Shown here: positions 1,103 to 4,898 of the stretch, piece after piece
How positions within the stretch are numbered: the stretch's first letter is position 1
Layout of the letters: every line of letters begins with the position of its first letter
From: an uncultured Actinomycetota bacterium
Lineage (GTDB): Bacteria; Actinomycetota; Actinomycetes; Mycobacteriales; CADCTP01
Reading direction: 5' to 3'
NCBI GenBank assembly: GCA_963714145.1
Contig: OY970235.1
Coordinates: 7,571,983-7,635,982, forward strand
Length of the DNA: 64,000 nucleotides
The notes under the pieces: generated by a model
What the model saw: the letters and a program-made list of their open reading frames with translations, nothing else
What the model was told of the DNA's origin: nothing
The model's database searches: none
Position numbers and translations under genes: made by a program

Positions 1103-2189
1103 ATGCGGGTACTCGCGGTGGACTTCGGTACGTCGAATACTGCGGTGGCGTTGGGTGTGGGTGGTGGGGTGCCGCGGTTGGTGGCGGTGGATGGGTTGCC
1201 GGTGGTGCCGTCGTCGGTGTTTTTGGGTGATGACGGGGTGTTGGCGGTTGGTCGGGATGCTGATCGTCAGGCGAGGTTGGATCCGTCGCGGTTTGAGCCG
1301 AATCCGAAGCGGCGGATTGATGAGGGTGTGTTGTTGTTGGGTGTGTCGTCGGTGCCGGTGGTGGATGTGGTGGCGGCGGTGTTGGGTCGGGTTGCTGGTG
1401 AGGTTGGTCGGCAGTTGGGTGGGCGTGCTGATCAGGTTCGGTTGACGCATCCGGCTCGGTGGGGTCGGCGTCGGTTGTCGACGTTGGTGACGGCGTGTCG
1501 GCAGGCTGGGCTTGCTGAGGAGCCGGTGTTGATTCCGGAGCCGGTGGCCGCGGCGACGCACTTCGCCGCGGTGTCCGGGCACAGCCTGGCGGACGGCGCG
1601 ACGCTGGCCGTCTACGACCTCGGCGGCGGCACGTTCGATGTCGCTGTGGTGCAGAAGCGTGGGGCCGGCTACCAGGTGCTCGCCGAGGATGGCCGGGCCG
1701 ACCTCGGCGGGTTGGATTTCGACCACGCCATCCTGGAACACGTCGGCCGGACGCACGCCGCCGCGATCGACCCGGCGGCCTGGCAGGCGCTGCTCACCCC
1801 GTCGGATCCGGCGAGCCGGCGGGCGGCGCGGGCGCTGGCCACCGACATCCGCGACGCCAAGGAAGCCCTCTCCCGACACCCCCACGTCGACATCGCACTA
1901 CCACCACCGTTCACCGACATCCACCTGACCCGAACCGAACTGGAAGACCTGATCCGCCCCAACCTGCAACGCTCAGTCGACCTACTCGCCACCACCATCG
2001 CCCAAGCCGGCTTCAACCCACACCAACTAGCCGGGATCTACCTCGTCGGCGGCTCCTCCCGCATCCCCCTGGTCGGCCGCCTCATCCAGGAAACCCTCGA
2101 CACCACACCCACCACCCTCGACCAACCCGAAACCTCCGTCGCCACCGGCGCCGTCTACCTACCGATCACGACCCCCTCGGCGCCGACCG
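1103..2189 (+). repeat. copy 1 of a 2709-bp-offset tandem duplication (identity tracts 1103-1554 and about 1799-2189)
   Basis: Direct comparison shows 1103-1554 equals 3812-4263 with no mismatch that I can find. About 1799-2189 matches 4508-4898 with 3 substitutions (1816, 1906, 2005). The 245 bp between the tracts are the same length but diverged. Confidence 0.9.
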
Positions 2190-3643
2190 CCCCGCCGAGC
2201 TTCGCTCCTGCCCATGGCCCGCCGCCGGGTGCGCCGCCACCCGGGGTGCCTGGTCGGCCGGGGTTGCTCCCGCAGCCGGCCCTCGGTGGGGTGCCCGGCT
2301 CGCCGGGCCAGCCGCCGGCTCCGACCCCGCCGGCTCTGACCCCGTCGACGGCGGGCGCGTCGTCCGCCAGTCGGTCCGGCCCTCAGGTTCCGAACCCGTC
2401 GGCGACGGGCGCGTCGGCCGCCGGCCGGGCCGGCCCGCAGGCTCCGGCGGTGCCTGCTCCGCGAGTCCCGCCGGCGGTTGGTGCGCCACCAGCGGGTTCC
2501 GGCTCGCCATCGGCGGCCGCGCCGACGCCGTCCGGCGGGCAGCCACCGGGAACGAGGCCTGGTTCTGGCCTGCCACCGGCCGCGCCGACGCCGTCCGGCG
2601 GGCAGCCACCGGGGACGAGGCCCGGTCAGGCGGTTTCCCAAGCACCGGGGCTGCGGCCGGCGCCAGGGTGGGCGCCGGGTGGTCCGCCGGCTACCGGTCC
2701 AGGGCCGGATGGTCGGCCGGCGGCGTTCGGCCCGCCGATGGCCCGGCCGGCAGCGCCGGGGGCGGCGCCGCCAGCAGGGATCCCGGTGCCGCGGGTGGGC
2801 TTACCGCCGGGGGCGACGCCGATACGGCTCGACCCGCCGGGACGGCCAGCGACCACCGGCCCGGTGCCCGGCCCGACCGCCCCCCGGCCTGGCCGGGTCG
2901 GCCCGCCACCGGGCCCGCCGCTCGGTGCCCCGCCGCCAGGCCCGCCGTCCGGTGGCCGGCCGTCCGGCCCGCCGTCTGGTGGCCCGCCGGTAGGCCTGCC
3001 GTCCGGCGGCCTGTCGTCCGGTGGCCCGCGGCCCGGTGGCGCGCCGCCGAGCGGCCCCGGGCCGGCGCAGTCGACCGGGTCACGGCGGTTGGTGCTGATC
3101 GGCGTGGTGGTCCTGGTCACGGTGGCCGCTGTGGTGGGCGGCGTGATCGCGGTCGCCTCCAGTCGCGGCGGCACCCCGGCTCGGCCCAGCGCAACGCTGG
3201 TGGCCAGCAGTCGGACGTCCAGCCCCGCCCCGGCGACCCCGACCCCGACCCAGACGCCGGACACCGAGTTCGATGACGCGTTCACCTCGACCGCGCTACG
3301 TGACTATGTACGGCCCTACTACGACCAGATCACGTCCTGCGAGAAGGCCACCACCGGATCGCTCGCGTCGGTGCAGTGCACGTTCGACAACGACGTCCGG
3401 GTCCAGTTGTTCGAGATCCCGACGAACATCTCGGTCACCGAACTCCGGACCAAGATCTCGCCGCTGCTGGATCATCCGGACAAGCAGGCCTGGGCGCACG
3501 GACAGCTGTGGATCTCGGAGGAGTCGGTCTCGGCGCTGTACTGGGATCAGGTGGATGAGCGGGTCGCCGCGCTGGCCCTGCTGCCGGCCGGCAACTCGGC
3601 GAAGTTGCGGACCTGGTGGCAGACCACGTTCGGGAGTTCGTAG
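1103..3643 (+). CDS. Hsp70-family ATPase-domain protein A: NBD only, then Pro-rich linker, one TM helix and a two-Cys C-terminal domain
   Basis: MRVLAVDFGTSNTAVA (phosphate-1), [14 protein letters not shown] (phosphate-2) and IYLVGGSSRIPLV (adenosine motif). No Hsp70 substrate-binding domain is present. A roughly 330-aa P/G/A-rich region follows, then TM LVLIGVVVLVTVAAVVGGVIAVA, then a C-terminal domain with SCEK...VQCTF. ATG at 1103 follows AAGGGGG. Confidence 0.85.
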   Translation: MRVLAVDFGTSNTAVALGVGGGVPRLVAVDGLPVVPSSVFLGDDGVLAVGRDADRQARLDPSRFEPNPKRRIDEGVLLLGVSSVPVVDVVAAVLGRVAGEVGRQLGGRADQVRLTHPARWGRRRLSTLVTACRQAGLAEEPVLIPEPVAAATHFAAVSGHSLADGATLAVYDLGGGTFDVAVVQKRGAGYQVLAEDGRADLGGLDFDHAILEHVGRTHAAAIDPAAWQALLTPSDPASRRAARALATDIRDAKEALSRHPHVDIALPPPFTDIHLTRTELEDLIRPNLQRSVDLLATTIAQAGFNPHQLAGIYLVGGSSRIPLVGRLIQETLDTTPTTLDQPETSVATGAVYLPITTPSAPTAPPSFAPAHGPPPGAPPPGVPGRPGLLPQPALGGVPGSPGQPPAPTPPALTPSTAGASSASRSGPQVPNPSATGASAAGRAGPQAPAVPAPRVPPAVGAPPAGSGSPSAAAPTPSGGQPPGTRPGSGLPPAAPTPSGGQPPGTRPGQAVSQAPGLRPAPGWAPGGPPATGPGPDGRPAAFGPPMARPAAPGAAPPAGIPVPRVGLPPGATPIRLDPPGRPATTGPVPGPTAPRPGRVGPPPGPPLGAPPPGPPSGGRPSGPPSGGPPVGLPSGGLSSGGPRPGGAPPSGPGPAQSTGSRRLVLIGVVVLVTVAAVVGGVIAVASSRGGTPARPSATLVASSRTSSPAPATPTPTQTPDTEFDDAFTSTALRDYVRPYYDQITSCEKATTGSLASVQCTFDNDVRVQLFEIPTNISVTELRTKISPLLDHPDKQAWAHGQLWISEESVSALYWDQVDERVAALALLPAGNSAKLRTWWQTTFGSS

Positions 3644-3811
3644 CGGCGGACGCCAAGCTGGCACGGAATGGGGAGAGGGAGCCTGGAGCCGGCCGCCGGC
3701 CAGCTACGTCCGACCGGGCGGCGAACATCGAAGTAGCAAGTGGACAGTCGTGGCGGCACCGGCCACGGCGGCCGGTCAGCAACGAGCGACAGCCACTGGA
3801 GGCGGACTGCG

Positions 3812-4898
3812 ATGCGGGTACTCGCGGTGGACTTCGGTACGTCGAATACTGCGGTGGCGTTGGGTGTGGGTGGTGGGGTGCCGCGGTTGGTGGCGGTGGA
3901 TGGGTTGCCGGTGGTGCCGTCGTCGGTGTTTTTGGGTGATGACGGGGTGTTGGCGGTTGGTCGGGATGCTGATCGTCAGGCGAGGTTGGATCCGTCGCGG
4001 TTTGAGCCGAATCCGAAGCGGCGGATTGATGAGGGTGTGTTGTTGTTGGGTGTGTCGTCGGTGCCGGTGGTGGATGTGGTGGCGGCGGTGTTGGGTCGGG
4101 TTGCTGGTGAGGTTGGTCGGCAGTTGGGTGGGCGTGCTGATCAGGTTCGGTTGACGCATCCGGCTCGGTGGGGTCGGCGTCGGTTGTCGACGTTGGTGAC
4201 GGCGTGTCGGCAGGCTGGGCTTGCTGAGGAGCCGGTGTTGATTCCGGAGCCGGTGGCCGCGGCCACCCACTTCGCCGCGGTGTCCGGGCACGGGCTCGCC
4301 GAGGGCACGGCGTTGGCGGTGTACGACCTGGGCGGCGGCACGTTCGACGTGGCCGTCGTGCAGCGCCGCGGCGGCGGCTACCAGGTGCTCGCTGAGGCCG
4401 GGCTGGACGACCTCGGCGGCCTCGACTTCGACCACGCGATTCTTGACCACATTGGACAGTCGCCGGCCGCGCAGGCCGATCCCGTTGCCTGGCAGCGGTT
4501 GCTGGCTCCGTCGGATCCGGCGAGTCGGCGGGCGGCGCGGGCGCTGGCCACCGACATCCGCGACGCCAAGGAAGCCCTCTCCCGACACCCCCACGTCGAC
4601 ATCGCACTACCACCGCCGTTCACCGACATCCACCTGACCCGAACCGAACTGGAAGACCTGATCCGCCCCAACCTGCAACGCTCAGTCGACCTACTCGCCA
4701 CCACCATCGCCCAGGCCGGCTTCAACCCACACCAACTAGCCGGGATCTACCTCGTCGGCGGCTCCTCCCGCATCCCCCTGGTCGGCCGCCTCATCCAGGA
4801 AACCCTCGACACCACACCCACCACCCTCGACCAACCCGAAACCTCCGTCGCCACCGGCGCCGTCTACCTACCGATCACGACCCCCTCGGCGCCGACCG
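3812..4898 (+). repeat. copy 2 of the tandem duplication
   Basis: See copy 1. The offset is a constant 2709 bp with no indels across the NBD-coding part. Confidence 0.9.

What the first reader, a model, noticed from the sequence alone, without database searches (positions are those of the whole stretch)
1103..4898. Mosaic gene-conversion tracts in a 2709-bp tandem duplication, with opposite third-codon-position skews (G/T-rich, then C/A-rich)
Seen directly:
- 1103-1554 is identical to 3812-4263 (452 bp).
- About 1799-2189 matches 4508-4898 with three substitutions. Two of them (1906, 2005) are A in copy A versus G in copy B.
- The 245 bp in between, and everything downstream, are strongly diverged although co-linear.

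The identical tracts also have anomalous composition for this genome. In tract 1 nearly every codon ends in G or T (GGT, TTG, GTT, GAT, GCT, CGT), and only about six of roughly 150 codons end in C or A. In tract 2 I find no T-ending codons and about twenty A-ending codons (GAA, CAA, CCA, CTA, CGA, ACA, TCA). The diverged segment between them uses the normal C/G-ending codons.

Tract 1 looks like saturated synonymous C-to-T change on the coding strand, including CTG to TTG. Tract 2 looks like G-to-A change, which is C-to-T on the other strand.

Inference: either concerted evolution (gene conversion) maintains foreign or compositionally odd cassettes, or a strand-specific mutational process (deamination, or transcription/R-loop or replication-associated) switches strand within the gene. 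Either would be unusual for a bacterial chaperone-family gene.
Basis: seen in the sequence. Interest (0 to 1): 0.8.

Follow-up and report, generated by a model that had tools for sequence, protein, structure and literature searches.

The report
GRINS repeats in tandem Hsp70-like genes
Two neighbouring Hsp70-like genes of a soil actinobacterium share two near-identical stretches with an extreme, strand-switching G+T / C+A bias; this matches the known "GRINS" repeats (cause still unknown), here outside antibiotic-synthesis genes.

Summary
Window 1103-1554 equals 3812-4263 (452 bp, 100%). 1799-2189 differs from 4508-4898 at 3 sites. The 244 bp between them is about 75% identical (dS about 0.84).

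The genes are old tandem Hsp70-family paralogs, not a recent duplication. Two segments have been homogenised recently.

The same segments carry intense skews. Tract 1 third positions are G 67%, T 29%, C 3%. Tract 2 is C 64%, A 16%, G 19%. The window background is G 46%, C 49%.

Positions 1 and 2 shift the same way (C and A replaced by G and T, then the reverse). Twenty-one homologs elsewhere show no skew.

[quoted passage not shown] 2021): 1,087 bp, 94% identity, mean |GC| and |TA| skew 0.33 and 0.32, r = 0.96.

A parallel case exists in Labedaea rhizosphaerae, in the same gene family. Contigs from the same species in other samples confirm both the tract sequences and the tandem layout.

Pure C-to-T / G-to-A deamination explains only about half of the shift; the rest is C-to-G / G-to-C.

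Verdict: a new member of a known kind. The mechanism that generates the skew is still open.

The parts
1103..3643 (+). Gene A. Hsp70-family paralog: actin-like ATPase domain, Pro-rich linker, TM helix and a C-terminal domain of about 140 aa.
   Evidence: ORF and Pfam PF00012, E 6e-32. The motifs [15 protein letters not shown] and GGSSRIP are intact. The source annotation (P0146, 704 aa) starts only at TTG 1529.
3812..6295 (+). Gene B, the tandem paralog with the same architecture.
   Evidence: ORF and Pfam PF00012, E 1.5e-33. 57% aa identity to A overall.
1103..1554 (+). Tract 1, copy A. G+T-rich (keto) on the coding strand. It starts exactly at the ATG.
   Evidence: 100% identical to 3812-4263. 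GC skew about +0.5 and TA skew about +0.55. Third positions G100 T44 C5 A1. Leu codons: TTG 15, CTG 0.
3812..4263 (+). Tract 1, copy B.
   Evidence: Identical to 1103-1554.
1555..1798 (+). Unconverted middle segment, copy A. Normal codon usage.
   Evidence: 62 differences from 4264-4507. dN 0.16, dS 0.84. Skews about 0.07-0.08.
4264..4507 (+). Unconverted middle segment, copy B.
   Evidence: As above. In conspecific contig L089 this B-type middle follows A's upstream region plus tract 1.
1799..2189 (+). Tract 2, copy A. C+A-rich (amino) on the coding strand. Skewed core about 1838-2165.
   Evidence: 3 mismatches to 4508-4898. GC skew about -0.45. Core third positions C .72, A .19, G .09, T 0. 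GAA 5 vs GAG 0; CAA 4 vs CAG 1.
4508..4898 (+). Tract 2, copy B.
   Evidence: 99.2% identical to 1799-2189.

Best explanation
This is a GRINS (genetic repeat of intense nucleotide skews) in a pair of old tandem Hsp70-family paralogs.

Shown:
- Two segments of the ATPase-domain coding region, 452 bp and 391 bp, are kept (nearly) identical between the genes. The 244 bp between them and everything downstream keep the old divergence.
- Only homogenisation of those two segments after the paralogs diverged (gene conversion or segmental replacement) explains this pattern.
- The homogenised segments, and only those, have been recoded. On the top strand of tract 1, amino bases (C, A) are replaced by keto bases (G, T). 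In tract 2 the same has happened on the bottom strand.
- The recoding is nearly complete at synonymous sites and partial at positions 1 and 2. The protein stays functional but its amino-acid composition drifts.

Inferred:
- The skew comes from a strand-asymmetric substitution or repair bias that acts on the recombination intermediates of recurrent conversion (single-stranded or heteroduplex DNA).
- The strand flip between the tracts then reflects a change in which strand is exposed or donated.
- Within the allowed base class, codon choice partly follows the genome's usual preferences. The tracts therefore look like a long-maintained equilibrium, not a fresh mutational burst.

The enzyme or process behind the bias is unknown, here as in the literature.
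For: Identity and mosaic structure. dS is 0.84 in the middle against 0-0.02 in the tracts.

The GRINS criteria are met (against the definition read):
- 1,087 bp at 94.3% identity.
- Mean |GC skew| 0.33 and mean |TA skew| 0.32 (threshold 0.15).
- GC/TA skew correlation r = 0.955, against 0.20 in the rest of the window.

The skew affects all codon positions. The keto fraction at positions 1+2 is 0.633 in tract 1 vs 0.514 +/- 0.011 in 21 homologs. It is 0.392 vs 0.473 +/- 0.013 in tract 2, and 0.549 vs 0.551 in the middle. Leu goes from CTG to TTG: 15 TTG and 0 CTG, against 32 TTG and 533 CTG in the background.

Homologs of up to 75% aa identity in 20 other genomes show no skew.

Independent replicate in the same family: in Labedaea rhizosphaerae (L007), paralogs 3 and 4 of four tandem copies share an almost identical (1 mismatch in about 330 nt) G+T-skewed 5' tract. 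It begins 2 nt before the start codon. Paralogs 1 and 2 are normal.

Positive control: a canonical PKS GRINS on a Streptomyces plasmid has the same third-position signature (G .56-.72, T .12-.30).

The tract sequences and the A-to-B tandem junction recur in conspecific metagenome contigs (L089, L090, L091). The short-read contigs L090 and L091 end inside the repeats; L090 (contig name k141_...) reaches exactly 141 nt into tract 1.
Against: - By the strict five-window rule of the GRINS paper, identity dips to 0.77-0.79 across the middle. The block then splits into a 630-bp piece, which qualifies, and a piece of about 480 bp, just under 500 bp.
- Conversion is inferred from the identity pattern. 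No donor or recipient has been observed.
- The link between skew and recombination intermediates is correlative.
- The rest of the 10-Mb genome could not be searched, so a third copy that serves as master donor cannot be excluded.
- The junctions of the copy-A middle segment with tracts 1 and 2 were not seen in any independent assembly.
Confidence: 0.8

Rival explanations
1. Pure strand-specific cytosine deamination. The top strand of tract 1 and the bottom strand of tract 2 are repeatedly single-stranded, for example as 3' tails either side of a break in the middle or as displaced strands of sense and antisense R-loops. They accumulate C-to-T changes, and conversion only spreads the result.
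For: - The polarity fits. The order [G+T][C+A] reads the same on either strand: on each strand the keto-rich tract is the one whose 3' end points to the centre. That is the geometry of 3' tails around a central break (inference).
- 2-fold sites are almost fully switched: GAT 8 vs GAC 2, and GAA 5 vs GAG 0.
- CTG is replaced by TTG.
Against: - Only about 27 of the 49 T-ending codons predicted for 4-fold boxes are present. The rest are G-ending, and G3 is 67% against 46% in the background.
- In Labedaea, C3 sites of the unskewed paralog correspond to T 43 and G 36 in the skewed one.
- A falls and G rises at positions 1 and 2.
- A break in the middle should convert the middle first, yet the middle is the unconverted part.
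- Secondary T-to-G change under GC pressure could rescue the model, but that is an extra assumption.
Confidence: 0.25
2. Error-prone synthesis with keto-enol (G.T-type) mispairs during repair replication. This is the hypothesis of the GRINS paper. The newly made strand gains G and T, and conversion then spreads it.
For: - It explains the coupled GC and TA skews and the A-to-G plus C-to-T changes on one strand.
- PKS GRINS show an abrupt 5' onset and a slow 3' decay of keto-richness, as a synthesis tract of variable length would.
Against: - It does not explain C-to-G.
- In this window both tracts are box-shaped, and their outer edges coincide with the ends of homology. A priming strand would have no homology there.
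- There is no direct evidence.
Confidence: 0.15
3. Keto-biased gene conversion through NucS/EndoMS. The actinobacterial mismatch endonuclease acts on G.T, G.G and T.T but hardly on A.C, C.C or A.A. Heteroduplexes are therefore rejected or resolved asymmetrically, depending on which strand carries the keto base. Both transitions and C-to-G / A-to-T transversions are driven towards keto on the strand that the recipient contributes.
For: - NucS substrate preference and its barrier to homeologous recombination are documented (PMC8228993).
- The model predicts the C-to-G share, the restriction of skew to converted tracts, coupled GC and TA skews, abrupt sign flips, and the enrichment of GRINS in Actinobacteria.
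Against: - Entirely inferential. The sign of the bias cannot be predicted a priori.
- GRINS are also reported in cyanobacteria, firmicutes and amoebae, which lack NucS.
- Presence of nucS in this genome was not checked.
Confidence: 0.12
4. Selection on the sequence itself. Examples: rare codons to slow translation, mRNA structure between tracts 1 and 2, a gene in another frame or on the antisense strand, or conserved flanks that allow the middle cassette to be shuffled.
For: - Identical flanks around a variable core resemble cassette systems.
- Contig L089 joins A's upstream region and tract 1 to B's middle.
Against: - No complementarity between tract 1 and tract 2 beyond 25 nt at 72%.
- No Rfam match.
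- Alternative-frame ORFs are W/R/C-rich by-products.
- The rule is by base class, not by codon rarity.
- Positions 1 and 2 shift too, at the cost of amino-acid changes.
- The L089 join may be an assembly path through the repeat.
Confidence: 0.05
5. Assembly artefact (a collapsed or copied repeat) or a horizontally acquired foreign segment.
For: Exact 452-bp identity is what a polishing or collapse error could produce. GC in the tracts falls to 0.63-0.65, against about 0.73 elsewhere.
Against: - The source is a single 10.08-Mb contig.
- Independent short-read assemblies from other samples contain tract 1, tract 2, the junction from A's 3' end to B's 5' end, and the tract 1 to middle-B junction. 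The short-read contigs L090 and L091 end inside the repeats.
- No genome has G/T-only or C/A-only third positions, so a donor with such usage does not exist.
- The same pattern occurs in Labedaea.
Confidence: 0.03

Closest known systems
[quoted passage not shown]
   Same: - Duplicated coding DNA of about 1 kb with more than 90% identity inside one locus.
- Intense, positively correlated GC and TA skews.
- G+T-rich and C+A-rich stretches within 1 kb on the same strand.
- Strongest at third codon positions, but also shifting amino-acid composition.
- Absent from homologs elsewhere.
- Associated with gene conversion.
- Most common in Actinobacteria.
   Different: - The host gene is an Hsp70-family membrane protein pair, not a PKS or NRPS, transposase or endonuclease.
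- Only two copies.
- More extreme than the PKS control: C3 is 3% here vs 6-28% there.
- Two box-shaped tracts of opposite sign flank an unconverted core.
- Tract 2 on its own (391 bp identical, about 480 bp by the five-window rule) is just under the 500-bp cut-off.
Concerted evolution of bacterial paralogs by gene conversion (e.g. tufA/tufB, rRNA operons; established knowledge)
   Same: Segments of paralogs are kept identical by recA-type conversion while their flanks diverge.
   Different: Those cases show no strand-specific base-class recoding.
GC-biased gene conversion (established knowledge)
   Same: A composition shift confined to recombining tracts, driven by biased heteroduplex repair. 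This is a possible analogue of the mechanism.
   Different: gBGC favours G and C on both strands and produces no skew. Here the favoured class is keto (G, T) on one strand, and GC content falls.
Strand-coordinated mutation clusters on resected DNA or R-loops (APOBEC/AID kataegis, Ig switch regions; background and established knowledge)
   Same: Strand-coordinated changes whose strand flips across a break point. G-rich non-template strands.
   Different: Those are somatic C-to-T / C-to-G bursts in specific dinucleotide contexts. Here the pattern is an evolutionary equilibrium filtered by purifying selection, and it includes A-to-G.
Fungal repeat-induced point mutation (RIP; established knowledge)
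   Same: It targets duplicated DNA and gives C-to-T / G-to-A changes.
   Different: RIP makes the copies diverge and destroys the reading frame. Here the copies are identical and the genes are intact.

Membership tests
GRINS (PMC8256042) | Duplicated region longer than 500 bp with more than 80% DNA identity to another region of the same locus or genome (150-nt windows, step 30, five-window mean). | tested here: met
   1103-2189 vs 3812-4898 is 1,087 bp at 94.3% identity. The five-window mean exceeds 0.80 over 1073-1702 (630 bp) and over 1733-2212 (about 480 bp), and dips to 0.77-0.79 between them. Tract 1 qualifies on its own. Tract 2 on its own falls just short.
GRINS (PMC8256042) | Mean absolute GC skew and mean absolute TA skew above 0.15 over the region. 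| tested here: met
   0.33 and 0.32 for copy A; 0.32 and 0.33 for copy B. Tract 1 alone gives 0.50 and 0.55; tract 2 alone gives 0.43 and 0.26. Background is 0.075 and 0.14.
GRINS (PMC8256042) | GC and TA skews correlated within the element, with abrupt changes of sign. | tested here: met
   r = 0.955 (copy A) and 0.970 (copy B), against 0.20 in the rest of the window. The sign flips between 1554 and about 1838.
GRINS (PMC8256042) | Skew strongest at third codon positions, with a shift towards Gly/Val-type (G/T) or Pro/Thr/His/Gln-type (C/A) amino acids. | tested here: met
   Third-position counts. Keto fraction at positions 1+2 is +10 sd (tract 1) and -6 sd (tract 2) relative to 21 homologs. 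Replacements such as A>V, T>V, R>G and P>V occur in tract 1, and V>T, V>I, L>Q and L>H in tract 2.
GRINS (PMC8256042) | Copies nearly identical within the genome, while homologs elsewhere are only modestly similar. This marks recent, lineage-specific activity and gene conversion. | tested here: met
   Best homologs elsewhere reach 75% aa identity or less and show no skew. dS is 0 in the tracts against 0.84 in the middle. Conspecific contigs carry the same tracts.
GRINS (PMC8256042) | Location in assembly-line PKS or NRPS genes. This is typical but not defining; the paper reports other gene families. | tested here: not met
   The host genes are Hsp70-family (PF00012) paralogs.
Repeat-induced point mutation (RIP-like) | Independent C-to-T / G-to-A transitions in each copy, so that the copies diverge and reading frames decay. 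| tested here: not met
   The copies are 100% and 99.2% identical. The ORFs and catalytic motifs are intact. About half of the shift is transversional.
Deaminase-type mutation cluster (APOBEC/AID/DddA-like) | Strand-coordinated C-to-T (with or without C-to-G) only, in a fixed dinucleotide context, unfiltered by selection. | tested here: not met
   T-ending codons follow G, A, T and C alike (GGT 13, GAT 8, GCT 6, GTT 4). A-to-G is seen at positions 1 and 2. Nonsynonymous sites are largely protected.
Hsp70 family (Pfam PF00012), as identity of the host genes | Actin-like ATPase domain with the phosphate-1, phosphate-2 and adenosine motifs. | tested here: met
   PF00012 at E 6e-32 and 1.5e-33. 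[15 protein letters not shown] and GGSSRIP are present. These genes are not the canonical DnaK, which lies at 54473-56353.

The most novel reading that the evidence does not exclude
The keto/amino rule of GRINS may be the footprint of biased heteroduplex processing during gene conversion. The actinobacterial mismatch endonuclease NucS/EndoMS sees only keto-keto mismatches (G.T, G.G, T.T). This would create a 'keto-biased gene conversion' whose strand depends on the polarity of strand exchange. This locus has two box-shaped tracts of opposite sign around an unconverted core, and roughly equal C-to-T and C-to-G shares. It would be a minimal natural system in which to test that idea and so explain GRINS in general.
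Probability: 0.12. Interest if true: 0.8.

Novelty: new member of a known kind. Interest (0 to 1): 0.42.

Why it matters
- GRINS have been characterised mainly in giant, many-module PKS genes, where many copies and selection on product chemistry blur the picture. Here the phenomenon is reduced to two copies, two tracts of opposite sign and an internal unconverted control. A second, independent occurrence exists in the same gene family in another genus.
- That makes the open question of what generates the skew experimentally tractable, for example with tandem-repeat reporters in wild type and repair mutants.
- The data already constrain the answer. The process replaces both amino bases with both keto bases on one strand, at all codon positions. 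It is confined to the converted DNA.
- There are practical consequences. Gene callers truncate such genes: the source annotation drops 142 codons. Short-read assemblies break or mis-join at the tracts.

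Tried and rejected
- Exact-sequence look-ups of genes A and B with four, then five, candidate starts found nothing. The reason for gene A is that the source annotation starts at TTG 1529.
- A long hairpin between tract 1 and tract 2 was rejected: the best inverted match is 25 nt at 72%.
- No Rfam family matches in 1-7000.
- No other copy of either tract exists in the 64-kb window.
- Other strongly skewed stretches in the 80 related loci (L003, L009, L012, L016, L019, L020, L027, L036, L059) appear, from their translations, to lie mostly in low-complexity (often Pro/Gln/Thr-rich) stretches and were not pursued as GRINS candidates.
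- I tested whether GRINS in general show the order [G+T][C+A], which would support a central-break model. Four PKS regions on Streptomyces plasmids were fetched for this. They contain clear G+T-rich GRINS but no adjacent C+A partner, so the test is inconclusive. It did show an abrupt 5' onset and a slow 3' decay.
- Accession AB088224 is not in the plasmid collection. No supplementary files are held for the GRINS paper.
- I could not decide whether contig L089 (A's upstream region + tract 1 + B's middle and remainder) is a real deletion or recombinant, or an assembly path through the repeat. A sibling sample carries the A-to-B junction.

Full report
**1. What is there**

The window is high-GC actinobacterial DNA. 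It lies on a single contig of 10,076,357 bp, and close relatives are labelled Mycobacteriales.

Positions 1103-3643 and 3812-6295 (+ strand) encode two tandem Hsp70-family proteins (PF00012, E 6e-32 and 1.5e-33). Each has an actin-like ATPase domain, a Pro-rich low-complexity linker, a transmembrane helix and a C-terminal domain of about 140 aa. The catalytic motifs [15 protein letters not shown] and GGSSRIP are intact. These are not the canonical DnaK, which sits with clpB at 54.4-61.4 kb.

**2. Check of the observation**

- Register: in the register +2709, 1103-1554 equals 3812-4263 (452/452).
- Tract 2: 1799-2189 differs from 4508-4898 at 1816 (C/T), 1906 (A/G) and 2005 (A/G).
- Middle: 1555-1798 has 62 differences from its partner. 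Identity is at noise level upstream of the ATG and beyond 2189.
- Third codon positions: tract 1 is G100 T44 C5 A1. Tract 2 is C83 A21 G25 T1. The middle is C44 G31 T5 A1.
- Background: twelve other genes of the window give G .465, C .485, T .029, A .021.
- Outliers: the G+T fraction in 150-nt windows reaches 0.80 in tract 1 and 0.27 in tract 2, against 0.51 +/- 0.056 for the window. The only other outlier is a repeat in the gene B linker.

**3. Old paralogs with two homogenised tracts**

In the middle segment dN is 0.16 and dS is 0.84. The linkers do not align at the DNA level, and the whole proteins are 57% identical. Synonymous divergence of 0 and about 0.02 in the tracts next to 0.84 between them requires homogenisation after the paralogs diverged. 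That means gene conversion or segmental replacement. It rules out a recent 2.7-kb duplication.

**4. Nature of the skew**

The skew is not only C-to-T followed by G-to-A.

- From background codon use, converting every C-ending 4-fold codon of tract 1 to T predicts about 49 T-ending codons. Only 27 are present, and the remainder are G-ending, so G3 is 67%.
- Tract 2 gains C (72% in its core) as well as A (19%).
- Synonymous first positions change too. Leu is TTG 15 and CTG 0 in tract 1, against TTG 32 and CTG 533 in the background.
- Relative to 21 homologs aligned codon by codon, tract 1 has more G and T and less C and A at positions 1, 2 and 3. Tract 2 shows the reverse, and the middle does not differ.
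- The keto fraction at positions 1+2 is 0.633 in tract 1 vs 0.514 +/- 0.011 in homologs. It is 0.392 vs 0.473 +/- 0.013 in tract 2, and 0.549 vs 0.551 in the middle.
- Amino-acid replacements go the same way: A>V, T>V, R>G and P>V in tract 1, and V>T, V>I, L>Q and L>H in tract 2.

The rule is therefore amino bases (C, A) to keto bases (G, T) on the top strand in tract 1 and on the bottom strand in tract 2. Selection damps it at nonsynonymous sites.

Within the allowed class, codon choice largely follows the genome's usual preferences (GTG over GTT, CCG over CCT, CGG over CGT). Gly is an exception: GGT 13 vs GGG 5, against 56 vs 113 in the background. This looks like an equilibrium, not a fresh burst.

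The skew edges coincide with the identity edges to within about 10 nt for tract 1 and 25-40 nt for tract 2.

**5. Related sequences**

- The 20 nearest homologous loci in other genomes (75% aa identity or less) have ordinary third positions throughout. The skew is therefore not a property of the gene family.
- It recurs where the family is tandemly duplicated. In Labedaea rhizosphaerae DSM 45361 (L007) there are four tandem paralogs. Paralogs 3 and 4 share an almost identical tract (1 mismatch in about 330 nt). It begins 2 nt before the GTG start and has third positions G .60-.82, T .18-.40, C 0-.08. In paralog 3 the skew runs for about 650 nt. Paralogs 1 and 2 are normal.
- At identical amino acids, C3 sites of the unskewed paralog 2 correspond in paralog 3 to T 43, G 36 and C 5. 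G3 sites correspond to G 70 and T 11.
- Conspecific metagenome contigs (about 98-99.6% identical) carry the same tracts.
  - L090 (ENA) and L091 (JGI) span window 2054-3952 and 2068-3881. That is the end of tract 2, the remainder of gene A, the spacer, and the first 141 or 70 nt of B's tract 1. They confirm the tandem layout. Both short-read contigs end inside the repeats; L090 (contig name k141_...) reaches exactly 141 nt into tract 1.
  - L089 (JGI) reads A's upstream region, tract 1, B's middle, tract 2 and the remainder of B. It is either a deletion by crossover in tract 1 or an assembly path through the repeat. I cannot tell which.

**6. Comparison with what is known**

[quoted passage not shown] The definition is as follows:

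- a duplicated region longer than 500 bp, with more than 80% identity;
- mean |GC skew| and mean |TA skew| above 0.15 in 150-nt windows.

Further reported features are correlated GC and TA skews, abrupt sign changes, the strongest effect at third positions, shifted amino-acid composition, an association with gene conversion, the highest frequency in Actinobacteria, and occurrence in non-PKS genes.

Here the block is 1,087 bp at 94.3% identity. The skews are 0.33 and 0.32, and r is 0.955 against 0.20 in the background.

By the strict five-window rule the block splits into a 630-bp piece, which qualifies, and a piece of about 480 bp, which is marginal.

A canonical PKS GRINS fetched as a positive control has the same signature. 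It lies at L095 11769-12939 vs 21476-22646, is 97.2% identical, and has third positions G .56-.72 and T .12-.30.

The finding is therefore a GRINS in a new host gene family. I found no paper after 2021 that gives a mechanism.

**7. How it most likely works**

Shown: homogenisation of two tracts, and strand-specific amino-to-keto recoding confined to them.

Inferred: the bias arises on the recombination intermediates of recurrent conversion.

The order [G+T][C+A] reads the same on either strand. On each strand, the keto-rich tract is the one whose 3' end points to the centre. That is the geometry of 3' tails around a central initiation zone. However, such a zone should itself be converted, and here it is the unconverted part.

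Candidate sources of the bias:

- **Deamination of exposed single strands.** It explains the transitions. It needs a secondary T-to-G step to explain the G excess.
- **G.T-type misincorporation by a repair polymerase.** This is the paper's tautomer idea.
- **Asymmetric heteroduplex handling by NucS/EndoMS.** The enzyme prefers G.T, G.G and T.T and hardly touches A.C (PMC8228993). This would drive transitions and C-to-G alike.

None of these can be decided with the data in hand.

**8. Verdict**

Conversion plus a strand-switching asymmetric process holds. 'Saturated C-to-T' and 'foreign cassette' do not.
- This is a new member of a known kind, with moderate interest.
- Its value is as a minimal two-copy model, with an independent replicate in Labedaea, for the unsolved mechanism of GRINS. 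It is also a warning for gene calling and assembly.

Noticed in passing
window 1103-1529 (gene A start): The source genome's own annotation of gene A (P0146, 704 aa) begins at TTG 1529. It omits all 142 codons of the G+T-skewed tract 1, including the essential DFGTSNT motif. The atypical composition evidently misled the gene caller.
   Followed up: yes
window 497 (gene 241-1041, minus strand): There is one extra T (GCTTGG here vs GCTGG in conspecific contig L089). It frameshifts the 3' end of the low-molecular-weight phosphotyrosine phosphatase gene. The product is 266 aa with an R/S/P/C-rich tail here, against 196 aa in L089. This is either a real frameshift or a consensus error.
   Followed up: partly
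window 5226-5475 (gene B linker): A third G+T-rich stretch (keto fraction up to 0.72). It contains an 84-nt tandem repeat, 5288-5371 / 5372-5455, at 83% identity. The conspecific contig L089 differs here by about 90 nt of indel. This may be a small internal repeat with skew.
   Followed up: partly
L089 (JGI Ga0307499_10000310) 7670-11419: The conspecific contig joins gene A's upstream region and tract 1 directly to gene B's middle segment and remainder. The body of gene A is missing. In tract 2 it carries the copy-A alleles at the sites equivalent to 1906 and 2005. It is either a crossover deletion within tract 1 or a mis-join by the assembler.
   Followed up: partly
window 6335-13840: The neighbourhood of the Hsp70-like pair holds two LuxR-type regulator genes (6335-6937 and 6909-10019, minus strand). 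A dynamin-like / GrpE-like / dynamin-like trio follows at 9775-13840. This order is conserved in conspecific contigs. All short-read contigs that carry the dynamin-like gene end inside the large LuxR gene, which contains a PTDDRPT-type repeat.
   Followed up: no
L092-L095 (Streptomyces plasmid PKS regions), e.g. L095 11700-12800 and 21200-22500: PKS GRINS show a sawtooth profile on the coding strand. Keto-richness rises abruptly (0.45 to 0.75 within about 100 nt) and then decays slowly over about 1 kb. No adjacent C+A-rich partner is present. This asymmetry may carry information about the mechanism.
   Followed up: partly
L007 (Labedaea rhizosphaerae NZ_SNXZ01000004.1) 153, 6001, 8084, 10186: Four tandem Hsp70-like paralogs lie in one array. 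The contig ends inside the skewed repeat of the fourth copy, so the full extent of the shared tract is unknown.
   Followed up: partly
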